DNA of 64,000 nucleotides from the human T2T-CHM13v2.0 reference genome, Homo sapiens. Shown piece by piece: positions 9,997 to 26,150 of the stretch. The notes below the pieces were generated by a model, which did not search any database, was not told where the DNA came from, and saw only the letters and a list, made by a program, of their open reading frames with translations. The DNA lies in NCBI RefSeq assembly GCF_009914755.1, contig NC_060938.1. One strand, 5' to 3'. The position numbers and the translations under genes were made by a program. The number at the start of each line of letters is the position of its first letter. Position 1 is the first letter of the stretch.

Positions 9997-10179
<183 letters not shown>

Positions 10180-11711
10180 TAGTATGTTTTGTCTTTAAGG
10201 CTATATTTCTATATGAAGGTTGTTTTAAAATCAACTAATAATGATTTCTTCCCCTGGTATCGCTTAGCATTAATTTTCATGGTCTTCATATGTTAAACAT
10301 TATTCTCATTCTCAACTACTTTGAATTTGAAAGTAGTTTAATAGTTAACCATTACTAAAAGAAAATTATTTTTCCTGCAGTAGTCGTAGGTTAATATTAG
10401 AAACAGATTATTGAAAACTAGGCTCATCTGGTATAAGGGTAGGCATAGTAATTACAGAATATGAAATCAATTTTAAAATTCTAGTTAAGAATTTAACTAC
10501 TTTTCCTATTAGTTTTTTTAAACTTATAAAAACAAGTTCAAGGACTGCAATTTAAGATACATGCTAATAAAAAGTAATATACTGAAATTTAACGTCATTA
10601 TTGGGTTAGAAGATCTGGATGAGCCTTATGAACTTTCCTTTAAAAGATTGTCAACAAGTTGTAAACATAAAAATTTAAAAATTTTTGTAGACAGCTTTCA
10701 GCTCCTCATGCATACTTGTGGTTTATTTTTGTTTTTTGTTTGGCGACTAGTGCAAGACAATCAGAGAATGGTAGGGTTGAAAGGACTATGACAAGTGACT
10801 CACAGATCCTTCCTTGCCTCATTTAAGTAGCATTTATAGAGCATTTATGTGTACCAGGTACTATGCTAAACCATTTTCTGCTTTGAAGGAGCTTGTAGAT
10901 TAGCTATGATTAACAAGTCAGCCAGCATGTTCAAGACAGTGTAACGAAGGTTATGAAAACAGTTCTGTGGGTGTACAAATTAAGACTACTTTATTCTGCC
11001 AAAAGGGATTAAAGACAATTTTCCAGGAAGGTGATATAACCAGATTTTGAAGATCAAATAGGCATTAGCTAATTGAAACAAGAAATGAAGACCCATGGAC
11101 TTGTAAAGAAAATGTGTTGTGTAGAGGAAATGGCAAATGATTAGGAATTTCTGGAGGTTTGGGTACATGAGGAAAGATGACATCTAAGGTCATTCCTCTA
11201 AGGCTAGAAAGGTAAGCAAAGGCTGGATCATTTAGTTTTAATTTCTTCTTACCCACATTGTATGACTATATCACAGTTTACCTGCTGTGTTAGAGATGCT
11301 CATTTGAGATGTTTCTAGTTGAGGAATATTATGAATAAGCCTGCTGTGAATATCATCTTGCAAGTCTTTTTGTGGACATGTGTATTCATTTCTCTTGGGT
11401 AAATACCTAGAAATGGAATTAACAGTTTTCCAAAGTCGTTGTGCTGGACATCTTTTGGTTTTTTTAGTTTTAATTTTTATCAGAGTTGTACATTCATATA
11501 TCACAGTGTCAAATAGTTTTACAAGACTTATAGCAAGAACAGCAATCTCCTAACCTGTTTTACCTTCCTCAGACTTACTATTTTTAACTGATTCTTTTTG
11601 GCATTTACCTGTATAGATCTACCTTTCATTTCTGCTTCTTACATTTTCTGACAGCTTCAGCAGAACCTGTGGACTGCCCTTTATGAAAGTTGGAGGCTTG
11701 ACTTCCTTTCT

Positions 11712-13500
11712 TTCTTTTTTTTTAGAAGCTTGTTTAGAATGCATGTGGTCCATTTATTCCTCAGAGTATTCTAGTTTACGTGCCTAGATTAGGTTAAACC
11801 ATCCGAGAGCTGCATGTTTGGACCAGGCTGTCTGGCCACCTCTAGGGTTTCCTTGCCCACGTTTCCCTTCAGCATTATGCCTGCCATTTGCACGGAGGCA
11901 CCTTCCAAGGGTGTGTGTAAGAAAACAGCGGTCCCTTTATCATGGGGCTGTAATGTTGATGTCCTTCAATGCTTTGTTTAGTGTCCCTTCTGTAAAGACT
12001 CAATCAAGATGTTTCTTTTAAATCTTGATGACAGCCAGTTCTTGTTTGTTTTCCTAAGAAATCTAGAATGCATTTTGGTTTTGGCTTTTTGTTTTTTCCC
12101 CATATAACCAGTGTTATTTTTAAAATTTCCCTTGGCCATTAAGCAGCTCAAAGCCAAATTCCCTGCTTACGTCCAGGAATTTATGGCTTTTGTCTCCCAT
12201 ATCCCTTCCCTCATCATCATAAATGAGGTCCTGAGCAGGATGATGGTTATAAGGATATTTTGCCTTATACTAATTCAAATTCATTAAGTTATCCATTTGT
12301 TTCTGAGATTTCTTTTTTTTACATTTGTGTTATGTTTAACAACATTATTAAAGAATAGTAACAGTTCAGAAAAAGGTTGTTAATTTAAACTTTCTGCAAA
12401 CATCACTGAAAACTTCACCAAGTATACAAGACTTTTTTCTTAGCCAGAAGCCCTTCCACCAAAACTCTAAGCACACCCAAAATCACTGTGCCCAAGAGCC
12501 CTGGGTGTCTGGTGAGCTGCTACACTGCACATGTACATATCTGCGAATTAAAATGTGCAAATGTGCAAATATGCAAATGGAGAAGGGGCATTTCCTGACC
12601 AGTCAAGGGAAGCTCCCTGGAAGTGTCTGTCCCTGACTCATCTACATTCTTATACCTCAAATCCAACATCCCTTCCTAGCACTTGGTGTGGGGGACCCCA
12701 GGCCAAGTGCTGGGACAGGTGTGCAGGTACAAGGCTGAGTGGGCAAATCATCCCTCAAAGCCCAGCAAGGTGCCCAGTGCACCAACAGCATAATGCACCT
12801 GAAAACAAGGTCCAGAAGCCCTGGCACAGGACCTTCCTTCCTGCCCTCCCATTCTCCCGTCAGACCAAACAAAGAGGACAGCAGCACCTAGGGCCCCACA
12901 GGACAGCACACAAGAATGCCCCAACTTCAACAACCTCCTGAGACAGAAGGGGACTCAGTCTAATCCTGCACAATAGACTTAGGCAGCCCAGCTCTGCAGC
13001 TCAACAGCTCTGTGGGTGGGACGTCTCTCACCGTCAGTAGGTCCTGCTCACGTCTGTACATGAGCCCCAGAGCTAAGTGGCCTTTGGCCTTGAACTCTGA
13101 TGTTTTCTCTCTCACATCAACGACATTTTTGGGAAACTTCTCAGCCTCTTCCTACCAGTGCAGGGAGCCCATGCATAGCTTGGCAGCGAGGAGAGGGATG
13201 GTGGCATCGTCTGGCTTCAGGTAGACACACTGTTTCAGCACTTTCACAGCACGAGCAGATTTTCCAGCAGCCATCAGGGACAGAGCAAACTGGTACCACA
13301 GGCGGAACTCCCCAAAGGCAAACTTCATGGCTCTTTCTAGGCACTGTGGTTCATTGTCTCATGCCAAGAAAGAATTCAAGACACGGACACACACAAGGAG
13401 TGGGTTTAAGAGTGGAAAGATTAATAGACAAAGAAGAAGAGAGAGAGAGAGAAAGTTTCCTCATGCTGAGAAAGCAGGTCGCTCAAGAGAGGGTCTCCCA
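11712..13500 (-). pseudogene. Processed retrocopy of an internal TTC7B transcript (LTR-like 5' leader + TPR-coding segment + non-coding 3' segment + poly(A))
   Basis: Minus strand 13343-13032 translates [69 protein letters not shown]...EKTSEFKAKGHLALGL, recognised as TTC7B. In-frame TAG at 13154-13152. AATAAA at 11758-11753, A-tail 11723-11712. 19-bp TSD GAGGCTTGACTT(C/A)CTTTCT at 11693-11711 and 13501-13519. Confidence 0.9.
13344..13500 (-). mobile_element. ERV1-class LTR fragment (R/U5-like) forming the 5' end of the retrocopy
   Basis: Minus strand ...ctattaatctttccactcttaaacccactccttgtgtgtgtccgtgtcttgaattctttcttggcatgagacaatgaaccacag resembles 3' ends of MER4-group LTRs; family not determined. 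Confidence 0.55.
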
Positions 13501-14738
13501 GAGGCTTGACTTACTTTCTCTCACCCCAGCCTGCACTACACATGTAGCCTCTCTTGTCTCCCTCATATACCTGATGTGTTTGCTTTATTATCACTGTGTA
13601 AATGCTCTTCCTTCATATCTTTTGTTTTCTCCTATACTTTGCTTTCATATGTATTTATCTCCCTTTCATTCTCAAGCTCTTAAGATATTAACTTTCTTTT
13701 CAGTACATTCAAACATGTCAAGAGTTCACTTTCTGGCTCTGCCACTTAACTGGACAAATTACTTAAACCCTCTTCTGTGCCTTAGTTTTCTCATCTATAA
13801 ATTGGGGGGTAATAGTACATATTTTCAAGGTTATTGTAAAAATTATTTGGGAAATACAAAGATCTAAGGATGCAGCTCTACACAGTGTTCAATATGATGA
13901 TAAGGTTTTGATGTAGCTATTAAAAAAATAAAATGTCTGTGTTATGATGTGAAACAATTCCCAAGTCTACTTTTAAGTGGAAAAAAGGCAAGTTGTATTA
14001 AAAACTGCCGTTTGGGTCCCCACTCCTACCATGTTTCCTTTCTGAATCTCCAGAGAACAATGAAGGATTAGAGTATTGTCTGCCTCACAGGACATACTTA
14101 AGAACTGTTACCTGTTCCAGTTAGTGTATTGCCCATTCTCTGCCAGGTATCATGCTGATAGACTCCAGAGATGCTACAATGAGCAGAGCTCATACGGAGT
14201 GACCACGTGTGGTTGGCTTTGGAAGATAGCCTTTGTAGTATTTCCTTCTGGGTATATGCAGTCATTCATTCAAAAAACAGTTACTGAATGCCTGCTCAGT
14301 GCTGTGGAGGACATAGTAGTTTATTACATGGGCAAAGGCATCAAGAAAGTAACACACCAAATGTCAGACTTTTCTTTTGCCTAATATATCATGTGTTGTC
14401 TTTTCCTACTCTTATTATTGTATCTAAAATTTACTATGCCAAGATATCTTATTCTTCCAAAAGGAACACAGTTTACCACAAACAATAGCACTTAAAATGT
14501 GAAAGAATTGATAGCCTCATGCATCAAAAGCAAATTATTCCTCATGTATGAGTAGAGCTTTAGTGCCCTCCCCCCAAAAACATCTGTAGCTTTAGTACCA
14601 AAGACATTTAGTGGCCAGATTCTAACTCATCAGAAAGTAATAAATCTAAATTTTTCTGGAATAAAATGCAATTAATAACGTGGCTAAAAACTTTTGTTGA
14701 ATTTAAGTTCGTTGTCTTTTTCCAAAATACGTACATAA

Positions 14739-14912
<174 letters not shown>

Positions 14913-25745: not shown

Positions 25746-26150
25746 AACAAATGATTGTTCTCCAGTATGAATCAGGATATGGCAGCTCAGATGGCAATCC
25801 CTGTTGAAAGTCTTGCCACAACCTTCATAGTCACAAATGGTCTCTGTCCTGTGCACTTGGACAAGTATGCATCAAGCTTTTAGGCCTTGTTGTAATTGGT
25901 GATGCAATCCAGGAAGGAACAGATGACCCTCCTGCGAAGCATGAGGGGTAGCAGTGGAGATACTGGGCTCTGCTGGCTGTGATGAACAGGTCAGTGATGG
26001 TTATAGATGACACCACCACAGTGACCAAAGCCAGCGGCTGCAGGGCACCGGGGCCTCCATGCTGTGGGACAGGCACATAACCGTGTGCTAAGCCATGTAC
26101 TGTGAAACAGTGCACTCAGCCAACTGTTCCGGGTGGACCCCACCTTACCC
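25746..26150 (-). pseudogene. GTF3A (TFIIIA) processed pseudogene, 5' fragment (N-terminus and zinc fingers 1-2)
   Basis: Minus strand gives LQPLALVTVVVSSITITDLFITAS... and [61 protein letters not shown], matching the TFIIIA N-terminus; intronless, with stop and frameshifts. Confidence 0.85.

What the first reader, a model, noticed from the sequence alone, without database searches (positions are those of the whole stretch)
11693..13519. Retro-fossil of a non-canonical, LTR-initiated and intronically polyadenylated TTC7B transcript
Seen: one TSD-bounded insertion (19-bp TSD, 1 mismatch). On the minus strand it reads about 157 nt LTR-like leader ending ...GAACCACAG, then TGCCTAGAA... (TTC7B CLERAMKF...), about 310 nt of intronless TPR-coding sequence, ...ACTGACG|GTGAG (a retained donor at 13031), about 1.3 kb non-coding sequence, AATAAA and poly(A). 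From recall of TTC7 gene structure, the coding block begins and ends on exon boundaries and spans about three exons. Inference: the source RNA was not TTC7B mRNA but a short internal isoform started in an intronic LTR, spliced to internal exons and cleaved at an intronic poly(A) site. It must have been expressed in germline or early embryo. Its GCCATGAAG start could encode an isolated about 100-aa TPR peptide of a PI4KA-complex scaffold.
Basis: partly seen in the sequence, partly recalled or inferred. Interest (0 to 1): 0.85.

Follow-up and report, generated by a model that had tools for sequence, protein, structure and literature searches.

The report
Chimeric TTC7B retrocopy from three sources
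This is a dead, roughly 50-million-year-old retrocopy in a PCNX1 intron that joins an endogenous-retrovirus LTR leader, three spliced TTC7B exons with part of the next intron, and the polyadenylated tail of an unrelated chromosome 18 transcript; it is a tidy example of a known kind of genomic fossil and shows no sign of function.

Summary

- **Leader: supported.** It is the R/U5 part of a low-copy ERV LTR. It ends exactly at a cryptic U5 donor (..CAC[A/G]G|GTA in the copies) and joins exactly at the TTC7B exon acceptor. This is a true splice junction.
- **Source LTR: not found.** No copy of this LTR family lies anywhere from that exon to 28 kb upstream of TTC7B exon 1 in this genome.
- **Intronic polyadenylation: refuted.** Only 806 nt after the retained donor are TTC7B intron. 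After a 4-nt filler, the last 498 nt, with AATAAA and the cleavage site, map uniquely to chr18:57,148,056-57,148,557 (minus strand). That locus looks like a genuine genomic poly(A) site.

The best reading is one L1-mediated insertion of a chimeric cDNA. Reverse transcription began on a chr18 transcript and switched to a partly spliced TTC7B RNA carrying an LTR-derived first exon. The copy has a stop codon and a frameshift, is unannotated and lies antisense in a PCNX1 intron. It is a new member of a known kind, of modest interest.

The parts
13501..13519 (-). 5' copy of the target-site duplication (AGAAAGTAAGTCAAGCCTC)
   Evidence: Read. It is 18 of 19 identical to 11693-11711.
13344..13500 (-). 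Leader derived from the R/U5 part of an ERV LTR in sense orientation. It carries a decayed ATTAAA (ATTAAT) and ends at the LTR family's cryptic U5 splice donor.
   Evidence: One search shows dozens of dispersed copies at 80-89% identity. The alignment with 7 copies is. Mean identity is 85.7%, and GTA follows the leader end in 6 of 7 copies.
13260..13343 (-). TTC7B exon, 84 nt (probably exon 10), starting exactly at the acceptor cag|TGCC
   Evidence: Maps to C14:84883454-84883537 with 81 of 84 identical. PDB TTC7B match.
13155..13259 (-). TTC7B next exon, 105 nt (probably exon 11); the intron has been removed
   Evidence: Maps to C14:84882324-84882428.
13032..13154 (-). TTC7B third exon (118 nt in the gene, 123 nt here; probably exon 12). 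Its first codon is TTG in the gene and the stop TAG here (13154-13152). A net +5 nt indel lies near its end.
   Evidence: Maps to C14:84880143-84880260. PDB TTC7B residues 449-481.
12226..13031 (-). Retained 5' part of the following TTC7B intron (806 nt here, 768 nt in the gene), beginning with the GTGAGA donor
   Evidence: Contiguous with the third exon on C14:84879375-84880142; p = 0.125, K2P = 0.138.
12222..12225 (-). 4-nt filler (CATT) at the junction between the two sources; it matches neither
11724..12221 (-). 3' end (498 nt) of a chr18 transcript, with AATAAA at 11753-11758. The homology stops at the cleavage site.
   Evidence: The only other genomic match is C18:57148056-57148557 on the minus strand, at 84% identity. 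chr18 has no A-tail and a TGTGTTTCT stretch just downstream.
11712..11723 (-). Remnant of the poly(A) tail (A9 then GAA)
11693..11711 (-). 3' copy of the target-site duplication (AGAAAGGAAGTCAAGCCTC)

Best explanation
This is one L1-mediated (target-primed) retro-insertion of a chimeric cDNA, lying antisense in the PCNX1 intron between the exons at 10073-10164 and 14802-14911.

**Inferred order of synthesis**
1. Reverse transcription was primed on the poly(A) tail of a transcript from chr18:57.148 Mb (minus strand). It copied the last 498 nt of that transcript.
2. About 4 untemplated nucleotides were added. The enzyme then switched template to a nuclear, partly spliced TTC7B RNA, landing 806 nt into the intron that follows the third exon of the block.
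3. It copied that intron piece and then three already-spliced exons.
4. It finished with a 157-nt first exon derived from the R/U5 part of an ERV LTR. That exon had been spliced from a cryptic U5 donor onto the normal acceptor of the first TTC7B exon.

**What is shown**
- The four source assignments.
- The splice-precise LTR-exon junction.
- Removal of two introns and retention of one.
- A single TSD pair, and a tail only at the 3' end.

**What is inferred**
- That the chr18/TTC7B join arose by template switching during reverse transcription rather than in an RNA chimera formed beforehand.
- That the LTR once lay in cis in TTC7B. The likeliest version is a then-young ERV insertion, possibly never fixed, in the 18-kb intron upstream of the first exon, which is absent from this genome today.

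The copy is a pseudogene, with a stop codon and a frameshift, and shows no sign of function.
For: - **Sources.** maps the element (numbered from window 13519 on the minus strand) as follows. Positions 22-173/176 hit many dispersed LTR copies. Positions 174-260, 258-365 and 365-1294 hit three TTC7B pieces on C14. Positions 1299-1796 hit C18:57148056-57148557.
- **chr18 piece.** It has only that one other match in the genome. On chr18 the homology ends at the cleavage site, 29 nt after a conserved AATAAA. There is no A-tail there, and a GT-rich stretch follows.
- **TTC7B gene structure.** AG and GT bound all three exons in the gene, and the third exon runs straight on into its intron.
- **LTR-exon junction.** The LTR copies read GAACCA[C/T/-][G/A]G followed by GTA in 6 of 7 copies (L008: CACAG|GTAAAT). 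The element switches from LTR to exon exactly there.
- **TTC7B identity.** PDB matches at E = 8e-36 and E = 2.6e-10.
- **Single event.** One TSD pair flanks the whole, and there is no A-run at the internal junction.
- **Same age for all parts.** K2P is 0.138 for the intron part and 0.157 for the chr18 part; p is 0.068 in the exons, where the parent is constrained. The leader is 85.7% identical to the LTR copies, which are 83.7% identical to each other.
- **Mechanism in print.** Bipartite and tripartite chimeras flanked by one TSD pair are attributed to L1 template switching in PMC2104539 (passages read).
Against: - No LTR of this family lies in C14:84870001-85070000. Nothing from the stretch beside a copy of the family, which I took for proviral interior, matches there either. 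The cis origin of the leader is therefore unproven.
- A 27-mer from the LTR, searched with up to 3 mismatches, hits 83 places genome-wide. The chr14 hits are at 7.09 Mb, 31.16 Mb and the element itself.
- The first-strand nick site implied by the TSD (..ACTTTCT/CTCA on the primed strand, read) is T-rich. It is not the canonical TTTT/AA, which I recall rather than tested.
- Template switching cannot be told apart from RNA ligation or other RNA-level joining using this sequence alone.
- The chr18 transcript is not identified, and no expression data were available.
Confidence: 0.78

Rival explanations
1. One reading: one TTC7B-locus transcript that started in an intronic LTR, was spliced to three internal exons, and was cleaved at a poly(A) site inside the next TTC7B intron.
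For: The LTR-exon splice junction, the exon block and the retained donor are real.
Against: - The last 498 nt, with AATAAA and the cleavage site, map to chr18. They do not map to the 9.4 kb of TTC7B intron fetched downstream of the breakpoint, nor anywhere else in the 200-kb locus.
- chr18 lacks an A-tail, so it is a source locus and not a sibling retrocopy.
- There is no LTR of the family in the locus.
Confidence: 0.03
2. The chimera existed as RNA before reverse transcription. The LTR exon was joined to TTC7B exon 10 by trans-splicing from an LTR elsewhere in the genome. The TTC7B-intron/chr18 join may also have been made by RNA ligation. L1 then copied one chimeric RNA.
For: - The leader-exon junction uses genuine donor and acceptor positions, yet no cis LTR exists today.
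- Law and Burns (bioRxiv 10.1101/2025.02.02.635956; abstract and section 32 read) propose trans-splicing for spliced gene-exon/L1 chimeras. In 15 of their 17 gene loci there is no intronic L1.
Against: - The TTC7B-intron/chr18 junction lies at no splice site. chr18 upstream of the breakpoint is A-rich with no AG acceptor, and there is a 4-nt filler. That join, at least, is not splicing.
- Trans-splicing in mammals is rare (general knowledge).
- A lost or unfixed cis LTR explains the same facts. The family was amplifying at about that time.
Confidence: 0.15
3. The leader was added by a second template switch, making a true tripartite template-switch chimera, and not by splicing.
For: Double switches are described in PMC2104539. 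The three bases CAG at the junction occur both at the end of the TTC7B intron and, in one of 7 copies (L008), in the LTR; the other copies read CGG, TGG or AGG there. They could therefore serve as microhomology.
Against: This needs two coincidences. The switch would have to leave TTC7B within 0-3 nt of the exon's 5' boundary, and land exactly on a GT-flanked donor position in the LTR. No normal RNA species has a free 5' end at an internal exon start.
Confidence: 0.04
4. Two or more separate events: nested retro-insertions, or capture of cDNA fragments during repair of a DNA break.
For: None specific. The L1 nick site is non-canonical.
Against: - One 19-bp TSD pair flanks the whole element.
- There is a single A-tail, at the 3' end only, and no A-run or second TSD at the internal junctions.
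- All parts lie in the same orientation.
- The parts have similar divergences.
Confidence: 0.03

Closest known systems
Chimeric retrogenes / retropseudogenes formed by L1 reverse-transcriptase template switching (Buzdin and colleagues; Gogvadze et al. 2007, PMC2104539)
   Same: Copies of unlinked transcripts are fused head to tail in one orientation. One TSD pair flanks the whole, a poly(A) tail sits only at the 3' end, and the junction lies at a non-splice position without extended homology (passages of PMC2104539 read).
   Different: The classic human cases have a small nuclear or other abundant RNA (U6 and similar) as the 5' part and an L1, Alu or mRNA as the 3' part; this is recalled and partly seen. 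Here both partners are Pol II transcripts. The acceptor template is an intron-containing, partly spliced pre-mRNA that also carries an LTR-derived first exon.
Processed pseudogenes as fossils of non-canonical isoforms, including semi-processed, intron-retaining retrocopies
   Same: Two introns are removed and one is retained. The 5' end records an alternative first exon. The retrocopy review PMC5470649 (passages read) notes that intron-containing retrocopies exist and are easily overlooked.
   Different: The retained intron is not carried to a poly(A) site of its own. It is cut short by the switch to another template, so it more likely records a nascent, unfinished RNA than a stable isoform.
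LTR-initiated chimeric gene transcripts (ERV LTRs acting as alternative promoters spliced to downstream host exons)
   Same: The leader is sense-oriented R/U5. It starts about 30 nt after a TATA-like box and is spliced from a U5 donor to a host exon acceptor.
   Different: The promoter LTR is not present in the host locus of this genome, so the defining cis arrangement cannot be shown.
Spliced gene-exon/L1 chimeric insertions attributed to trans-splicing (Law and Burns 2025, bioRxiv 10.1101/2025.02.02.635956)
   Same: The junction is splice-precise although the upstream partner is absent from the downstream partner's locus (for the paper; here).
   Different: No L1 sequence is part of this chimera. 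[quoted passage not shown]
LTR-mediated retroposition (Tan et al. 2016, PMC5131818; only the search listing and the start of the abstract seen; described in PMC5470649)
   Same: LTR sequence is attached to a copy of a cellular transcript.
   Different: Those copies are flanked by LTR sequence on both sides and are made by the retroelement's own machinery. Here LTR sequence is on the 5' side only, joined by splicing, with a poly(A) tail and a 19-bp TSD.

Membership tests
L1-mediated retrocopy (processed or semi-processed pseudogene) | Target-site duplication of about 7-20 bp flanking the insert | tested here: met
   19 bp, 18 of 19 identical (13519-13501 and 11711-11693).
L1-mediated retrocopy (processed or semi-processed pseudogene) | Poly(A) tail at the 3' end, downstream of a poly(A) signal | tested here: met
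   AATAAA at 11758-11753 and A9 then GAA at 11723-11712. Homology to the chr18 source stops where the tail begins.
L1-mediated retrocopy (processed or semi-processed pseudogene) | Loss of parental introns at exact exon-exon junctions | tested here: met
   Two introns, of 1,025 and 2,063 bp in the gene, are removed exactly. The third intron is retained.
L1-mediated retrocopy (processed or semi-processed pseudogene) | Nick site resembling the L1 endonuclease consensus TTTT/AA (consensus recalled) | tested here: inconclusive
   The implied primed strand ends ..ACTTTCT/CTCA. It is T-rich but lacks the /AA. The TSD boundary is ambiguous by a few bases.
Template-switch chimeric retrogene | Parts derive from unlinked loci | tested here: met
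   C14:84.88 Mb (TTC7B) and C18:57.148 Mb, each the only match in the genome.
Template-switch chimeric retrogene | Parts in the same orientation, one TSD pair around the whole, no internal poly(A) | tested here: met
Template-switch chimeric retrogene | The join was made during reverse transcription rather than in RNA | not testable with these tools
   The junction is at no splice site and has a 4-nt filler. That fits a switch but does not exclude RNA ligation.
LTR-initiated host-gene isoform (alternative LTR promoter) | Leader is the sense R/U5 of an LTR, starting at a plausible transcription start | tested here: met
   The leader starts about 30 nt after a TACAAAA-like box, which reads TACAAAA in 4 of 7 copies and is variant in the other 3. 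A CCAAT motif lies further upstream, and ATTAAA lies inside the leader region of the copies. The promoter reading itself is inference.
LTR-initiated host-gene isoform (alternative LTR promoter) | Splice donor in the LTR joined to a host exon acceptor | tested here: met
   GTA follows the leader end in 6 of 7 copies. The exon starts right after the gene's cag acceptor.
LTR-initiated host-gene isoform (alternative LTR promoter) | The LTR lies in cis, upstream of the exon, in the host locus | tested here: not met
   No match to the leader or to six extracts covering whole LTR copies in C14:84870001-85070000, apart from Alu in one copy's flank and two short CT-rich or borderline matches. Exon 1 is at 85041785-85041910. 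Only this one genome was tested.
Intronic polyadenylation isoform of TTC7B | Poly(A) signal and cleavage site lie in the TTC7B intron | tested here: not met
   The signal and the site belong to chr18 sequence.

The most novel reading that the evidence does not exclude
The leader may be the only surviving record of something no longer in the genome. One possibility is an ERV insertion allele in the TTC7B intron upstream of exon 10. It would have driven a germline-expressed truncated TTC7B RNA about 40-60 million years ago and was then lost. The bolder possibility is genuine trans-splicing of an LTR-initiated RNA onto TTC7B pre-mRNA, caught when L1 reverse transcriptase switched onto that nascent nuclear RNA. 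[quoted passage not shown]
Probability: 0.15. Interest if true: 0.55.

Novelty: new member of a known kind. Interest (0 to 1): 0.3.

Why it matters
The main value is as a worked example. A structure that looked like one exotic TTC7B isoform turns out to be a chimera of two unlinked transcripts plus an LTR exon. This matters for anyone who uses retrocopies as fossils of past transcript isoforms: 3' ends and poly(A) sites in such fossils can come from a different gene.

Two points are of moderate specialist interest:
- The acceptor template of the switch was an intron-containing, partly spliced pre-mRNA.
- The spliced LTR leader has no cis source today. That gives a concrete, datable test case for a lost ERV allele versus trans-splicing.

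Nothing suggests a function for PCNX1, TTC7B or PI4KA biology.

Tried and rejected
- **Source LTR in TTC7B.** BLAST of the leader, of six extracts covering whole LTR copies and of about 1 kb lying beside a copy of the family, on the side I took for proviral interior, against 200 kb of the locus. I found only Alu from one copy's flank, one short CT-rich match and one borderline short match.
- **Source LTR with the leader's apparent 31-nt gap.** A 23-nt junction pattern with up to 3 mismatches gave 7 hits against 3 for the control pattern. The only exact hit is the element itself and none is an LTR copy.
- **Genome-wide 27-mer of the LTR.** 83 hits, none near TTC7B or near the chr18 locus.
- **More flanking DNA.** An LTR more than 28 kb upstream of TTC7B exon 1, and the chr18 transcript's structure, were therefore not examined directly.
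- **Naming the LTR family or ERV class.** Pfam on two ORFs in that same stretch beside the LTR gave 0 families. Rfam over 11500-13700 gave 0 matches. No repeat library was available, so the family is left unnamed. I built no consensus of the LTR.
- **Is the 9-nt identity between the TSD end and the LTR's U3 meaningful?** By sampling, 0.24% of window 9-mers occur in the last 100 nt of the seven U3s and 1.8% occur anywhere in them. I treat it as probable chance.
- **LINC-ROR as the chr18 source.** I rejected this on position. The TXNL1 PITH exons lie at C18:56.816-56.820 Mb. Together with recalled hg38 coordinates, that places the locus inside WDR7, antisense. This rests on recall.
- **Literature on a TTC7B pseudogene.** 0 papers. 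The one paper in the 15 listed rows of the wider search that mentions TTC7B concerns an unrelated retrocopy inside the TTC7B 3' UTR (PMC5010893, one passage).
- **Search for 'genomic fossil' papers.** One search listed nothing directly relevant.


Full report
**1. What is in the sequence**

On the minus strand, window 13519-11693 is bounded by a 19-bp direct repeat. The copies are AGAAAGTAAGTCAAGCCTC at 13519-13501 and AGAAAGGAAGTCAAGCCTC at 11711-11693, with one mismatch. Inside, reading 5' to 3', lie:
- a 157-nt leader (13500-13344);
- 312 nt of TTC7B coding sequence (13343-13032);
- a GT at 13031-13030, followed by non-coding sequence;
- AATAAA at 11758-11753;
- an A9 then GAA tail remnant at 11723-11712.

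**2. The coding block**

The two open stretches of the block match PDB chains of human TTC7B. The matches are E = 8e-36 (residues 384-447 of the 843-residue chain) and E = 2.6e-10 (residues 449-481).

The window's own genome could be searched. The block maps to three separate pieces of C14, at 84883454-84883537, 84882324-84882428 and 84880143-84880260. In the gene these pieces are bounded by ..ccaaccag|TGCC and AAAA|gtgagt, by ..ttgccaag|TCTG and CTGG|gtgagt, and by ..tttttcag|TTGG and GACG|gtgaga. They are therefore three consecutive exons with two introns (1,025 and 2,063 bp) removed exactly.

Nine exon-sized matches to the TTC7 N-terminal family PF19440 lie upstream on the same strand, up to 85041785-85041910. 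The three exons are thus probably exons 10-12, although small exons could have been missed.

The copy is dead. The first codon of the third exon is TTG in the gene and TAG here. A net +5 nt indel lies near the end of that exon.

**3. The 3' non-coding part is composite**

The third exon runs on into its own intron for 806 nt (768 nt in the gene, down to C14:84879375), with p = 0.125. At 12226 the TTC7B homology stops. The gene continues ..GGAGCT|AGAACCTTGCC, whereas the element reads ..GGACCT CATT TATGATGATG.

After four bases that match neither source, the remaining 498 nt (12221-11724) match C18:57148056-57148557 on the minus strand at 84% identity. That is their only other occurrence in the genome.

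On chr18 the similarity ends exactly where the element's A-tail starts, 29 nt after a conserved AATAAA. chr18 continues without any A-run into TAGTGCTCTGTGTTTCTC. This is the look of a genuine genomic poly(A) site, so chr18 is a source and not a sibling retrocopy.

Upstream of the breakpoint, chr18 is A-rich with no AG acceptor. The junction is therefore not a splice.

BLAST of the element against 200 kb of the TTC7B locus, including 9.4 kb of intron beyond the breakpoint, finds nothing for this segment.

**4. The leader**

Element positions 22-176 match many dispersed copies at 80-89% identity. I aligned seven of them with their flanks. The family is an LTR of about 620 bp, and the leader corresponds to its last quarter, short of the final 30 nt or so.

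Several copies occur as same-strand pairs 5-7 kb apart. The chr8 pair is 81.4% identical over 668 aligned columns. This is the arrangement expected of the two LTRs of a provirus. No repeat library was available, so I leave the family unnamed. I built no consensus.

Two positional facts matter:
- **The leader's end.** The leader ends ..GAACCACAG. The copies read GAACCA[C/T/-][G/A]G followed by GTA in 6 of 7 (L008: CACAG|GTAAAT; L004 has ATA). The leader therefore stops exactly at a GT-flanked donor-like site in U5, and the next base is the first base of the TTC7B exon, right after the gene's cag acceptor. A junction that is splice-precise on both sides is best explained by splicing. A template switch would need two positional coincidences.
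- **The leader's start.** The leader begins about 30 nt downstream of a TACAAAA-like box and about 85 nt downstream of a CCAAT motif in the copies. The copies carry ATTAAA about 75 nt into the leader region. This fits a start at the U3/R boundary. The promoter reading is inference.

**5. Where is the LTR?**

I fetched C14:84870001-85070000, which runs from below the third exon to 28 kb beyond exon 1. Three queries were run against it:
- the leader, which gave nothing beyond a 26-nt CT-rich match and two roughly 21-nt matches to the tail;
- six extracts covering whole LTR copies, which gave only Alu hits from the flank of one extract, one 32-nt CT-rich match and one 33-nt match at the E-value cut-off;
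- about 1 kb lying beside a copy of the family, on the side I took for proviral interior, which gave no hits.

A 27-mer from the LTR, with up to 3 mismatches, hits 83 places genome-wide. On chr14 the hits are only at 7.09 Mb, 31.16 Mb and the element itself. On chr18 they are at 48.4 and 53.0 Mb. This pattern would miss the more diverged copies.

The LTR exon is therefore spliced to TTC7B, but no cis LTR exists in this genome. Three possibilities remain:
- an ERV insertion in the 18.1-kb upstream intron that was later lost or was never fixed;
- trans-splicing;
- much less likely, a very distant upstream LTR.

**6. Timing**

| Comparison | Divergence or identity |
|---|---|
| Intron part vs TTC7B | K2P 0.138 |
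| chr18 part vs chr18 | K2P 0.157 |
| Exons vs TTC7B (parent constrained, so change is mostly on the copy's side) | p 0.068 |
| Leader vs 7 LTR copies | mean identity 85.7% |
| LTR copies vs each other | mean identity 83.7% (21 pairs) |
| chr8 LTR pair | identity 81.4% |

All parts are thus about equally old, at roughly 7-8% change per lineage. The retrocopy formed at about the time the ERV family was inserting.

Using recalled primate neutral rates, this is of the order of 40-60 million years. Ortholog checks are needed to confirm it.

The timing makes an unfixed ERV allele in TTC7B a reasonable source, because most new insertions are lost.

**7. Mechanism**

There is one TSD pair, one tail and one orientation, and no internal A-run. 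These indicate a single L1-type target-primed event that copied two unlinked RNAs. Bipartite and tripartite chimeras of exactly this layout are attributed to template switching by the LINE reverse transcriptase in PMC2104539 (passages read).

I infer that synthesis began on the chr18 transcript's tail and added about 4 untemplated bases after 498 nt. It then continued on a nuclear TTC7B RNA whose two short upstream introns were already spliced but whose next intron was not. That pattern fits a nascent pre-mRNA better than a stable intron-retaining isoform.

RNA-level joining before reverse transcription cannot be excluded. Law and Burns (bioRxiv 2025; abstract and section 32 read) argue for trans-splicing in spliced gene/L1 chimeras whose gene loci lack an L1. 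That is the closest published parallel to the orphan LTR-exon junction here.

The implied nick site is T-rich but not canonical (the consensus is recalled).

**8. The chr18 source**

I could not name the transcript. The TXNL1 PITH-domain exons lie at C18:56,816,391-56,820,100. Together with hg38 coordinates that I recall, not test, this places the locus inside WDR7 on the opposite strand, and not at LINC-ROR.

**9. Function and novelty**

The element lies antisense in a PCNX1 intron. It is not in the RefSeq table supplied with the finding, matches no Rfam family and has a broken frame. Searches for a TTC7B pseudogene in the paper library returned nothing. The only paper among the 15 listed rows of the wider search that mentions TTC7B concerns a different retrocopy, inside the TTC7B 3' UTR (PMC5010893). 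I could not consult retrocopy catalogues or supplements.

**10. Verdict**

This is a new, apparently undescribed member of a known class, the chimeric retropseudogenes. It has one curious feature, a spliced LTR leader with no surviving cis LTR.

Noticed in passing
window 13501-13509 (end of the 5' TSD) compared with LTR copies L004-L010: The last 9 nt of the TSD (TCAAGCCTC) are identical to an LTR segment that lies about 31 nt upstream of the leader's start, just before the TACAAAA-like box. MAFFT therefore aligns the TSD to the LTR with a 31-nt gap. This could be microhomology at the 5' junction from an RNA that extended into U3, or it could be chance. By sampling, 0.24% of window 9-mers occur in the last 100 nt of the seven U3s and 1.8% anywhere in them. 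No genomic LTR copy has such a gap.
   Followed up: partly
G000 C8:111958288-111964084; also C6:32939169/32945801, C3:165209330/165214622 and C5:28117668/28120795: Same-strand pairs of this LTR lie 3-7 kb apart, which suggests proviruses of the family. The chr8 pair is 81.4% identical over 668 columns. Two ORFs in the stretch beside one chr8 LTR, which I took for proviral interior, matched no Pfam family.
   Followed up: partly
L003 (C18:57146556-57150057), just upstream of the breakpoint on the minus strand: The chr18 source has an A-rich stretch, with a GTAAAAAG motif about 29 nt upstream of the point where the copied segment begins. If that point is the RNA's real 5' end, the first template was a short RNA of about 500 nt and the switch was an end-to-end jump. 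This is speculative.
   Followed up: no
window 13351-13482 (minus strand): The LTR leader holds upstream ATGs, including one that opens a 37-codon frame ending just before the TTC7B part.
   Followed up: no
window 25748-26013, and 66771-67250 just outside the window (annotation supplied with the finding): Two other annotated processed pseudogenes, GTF3AP2 and PTTG1P1, lie in or near the same PCNX1 region on the minus strand. The TTC7B-derived element is not in that table.
   Followed up: no
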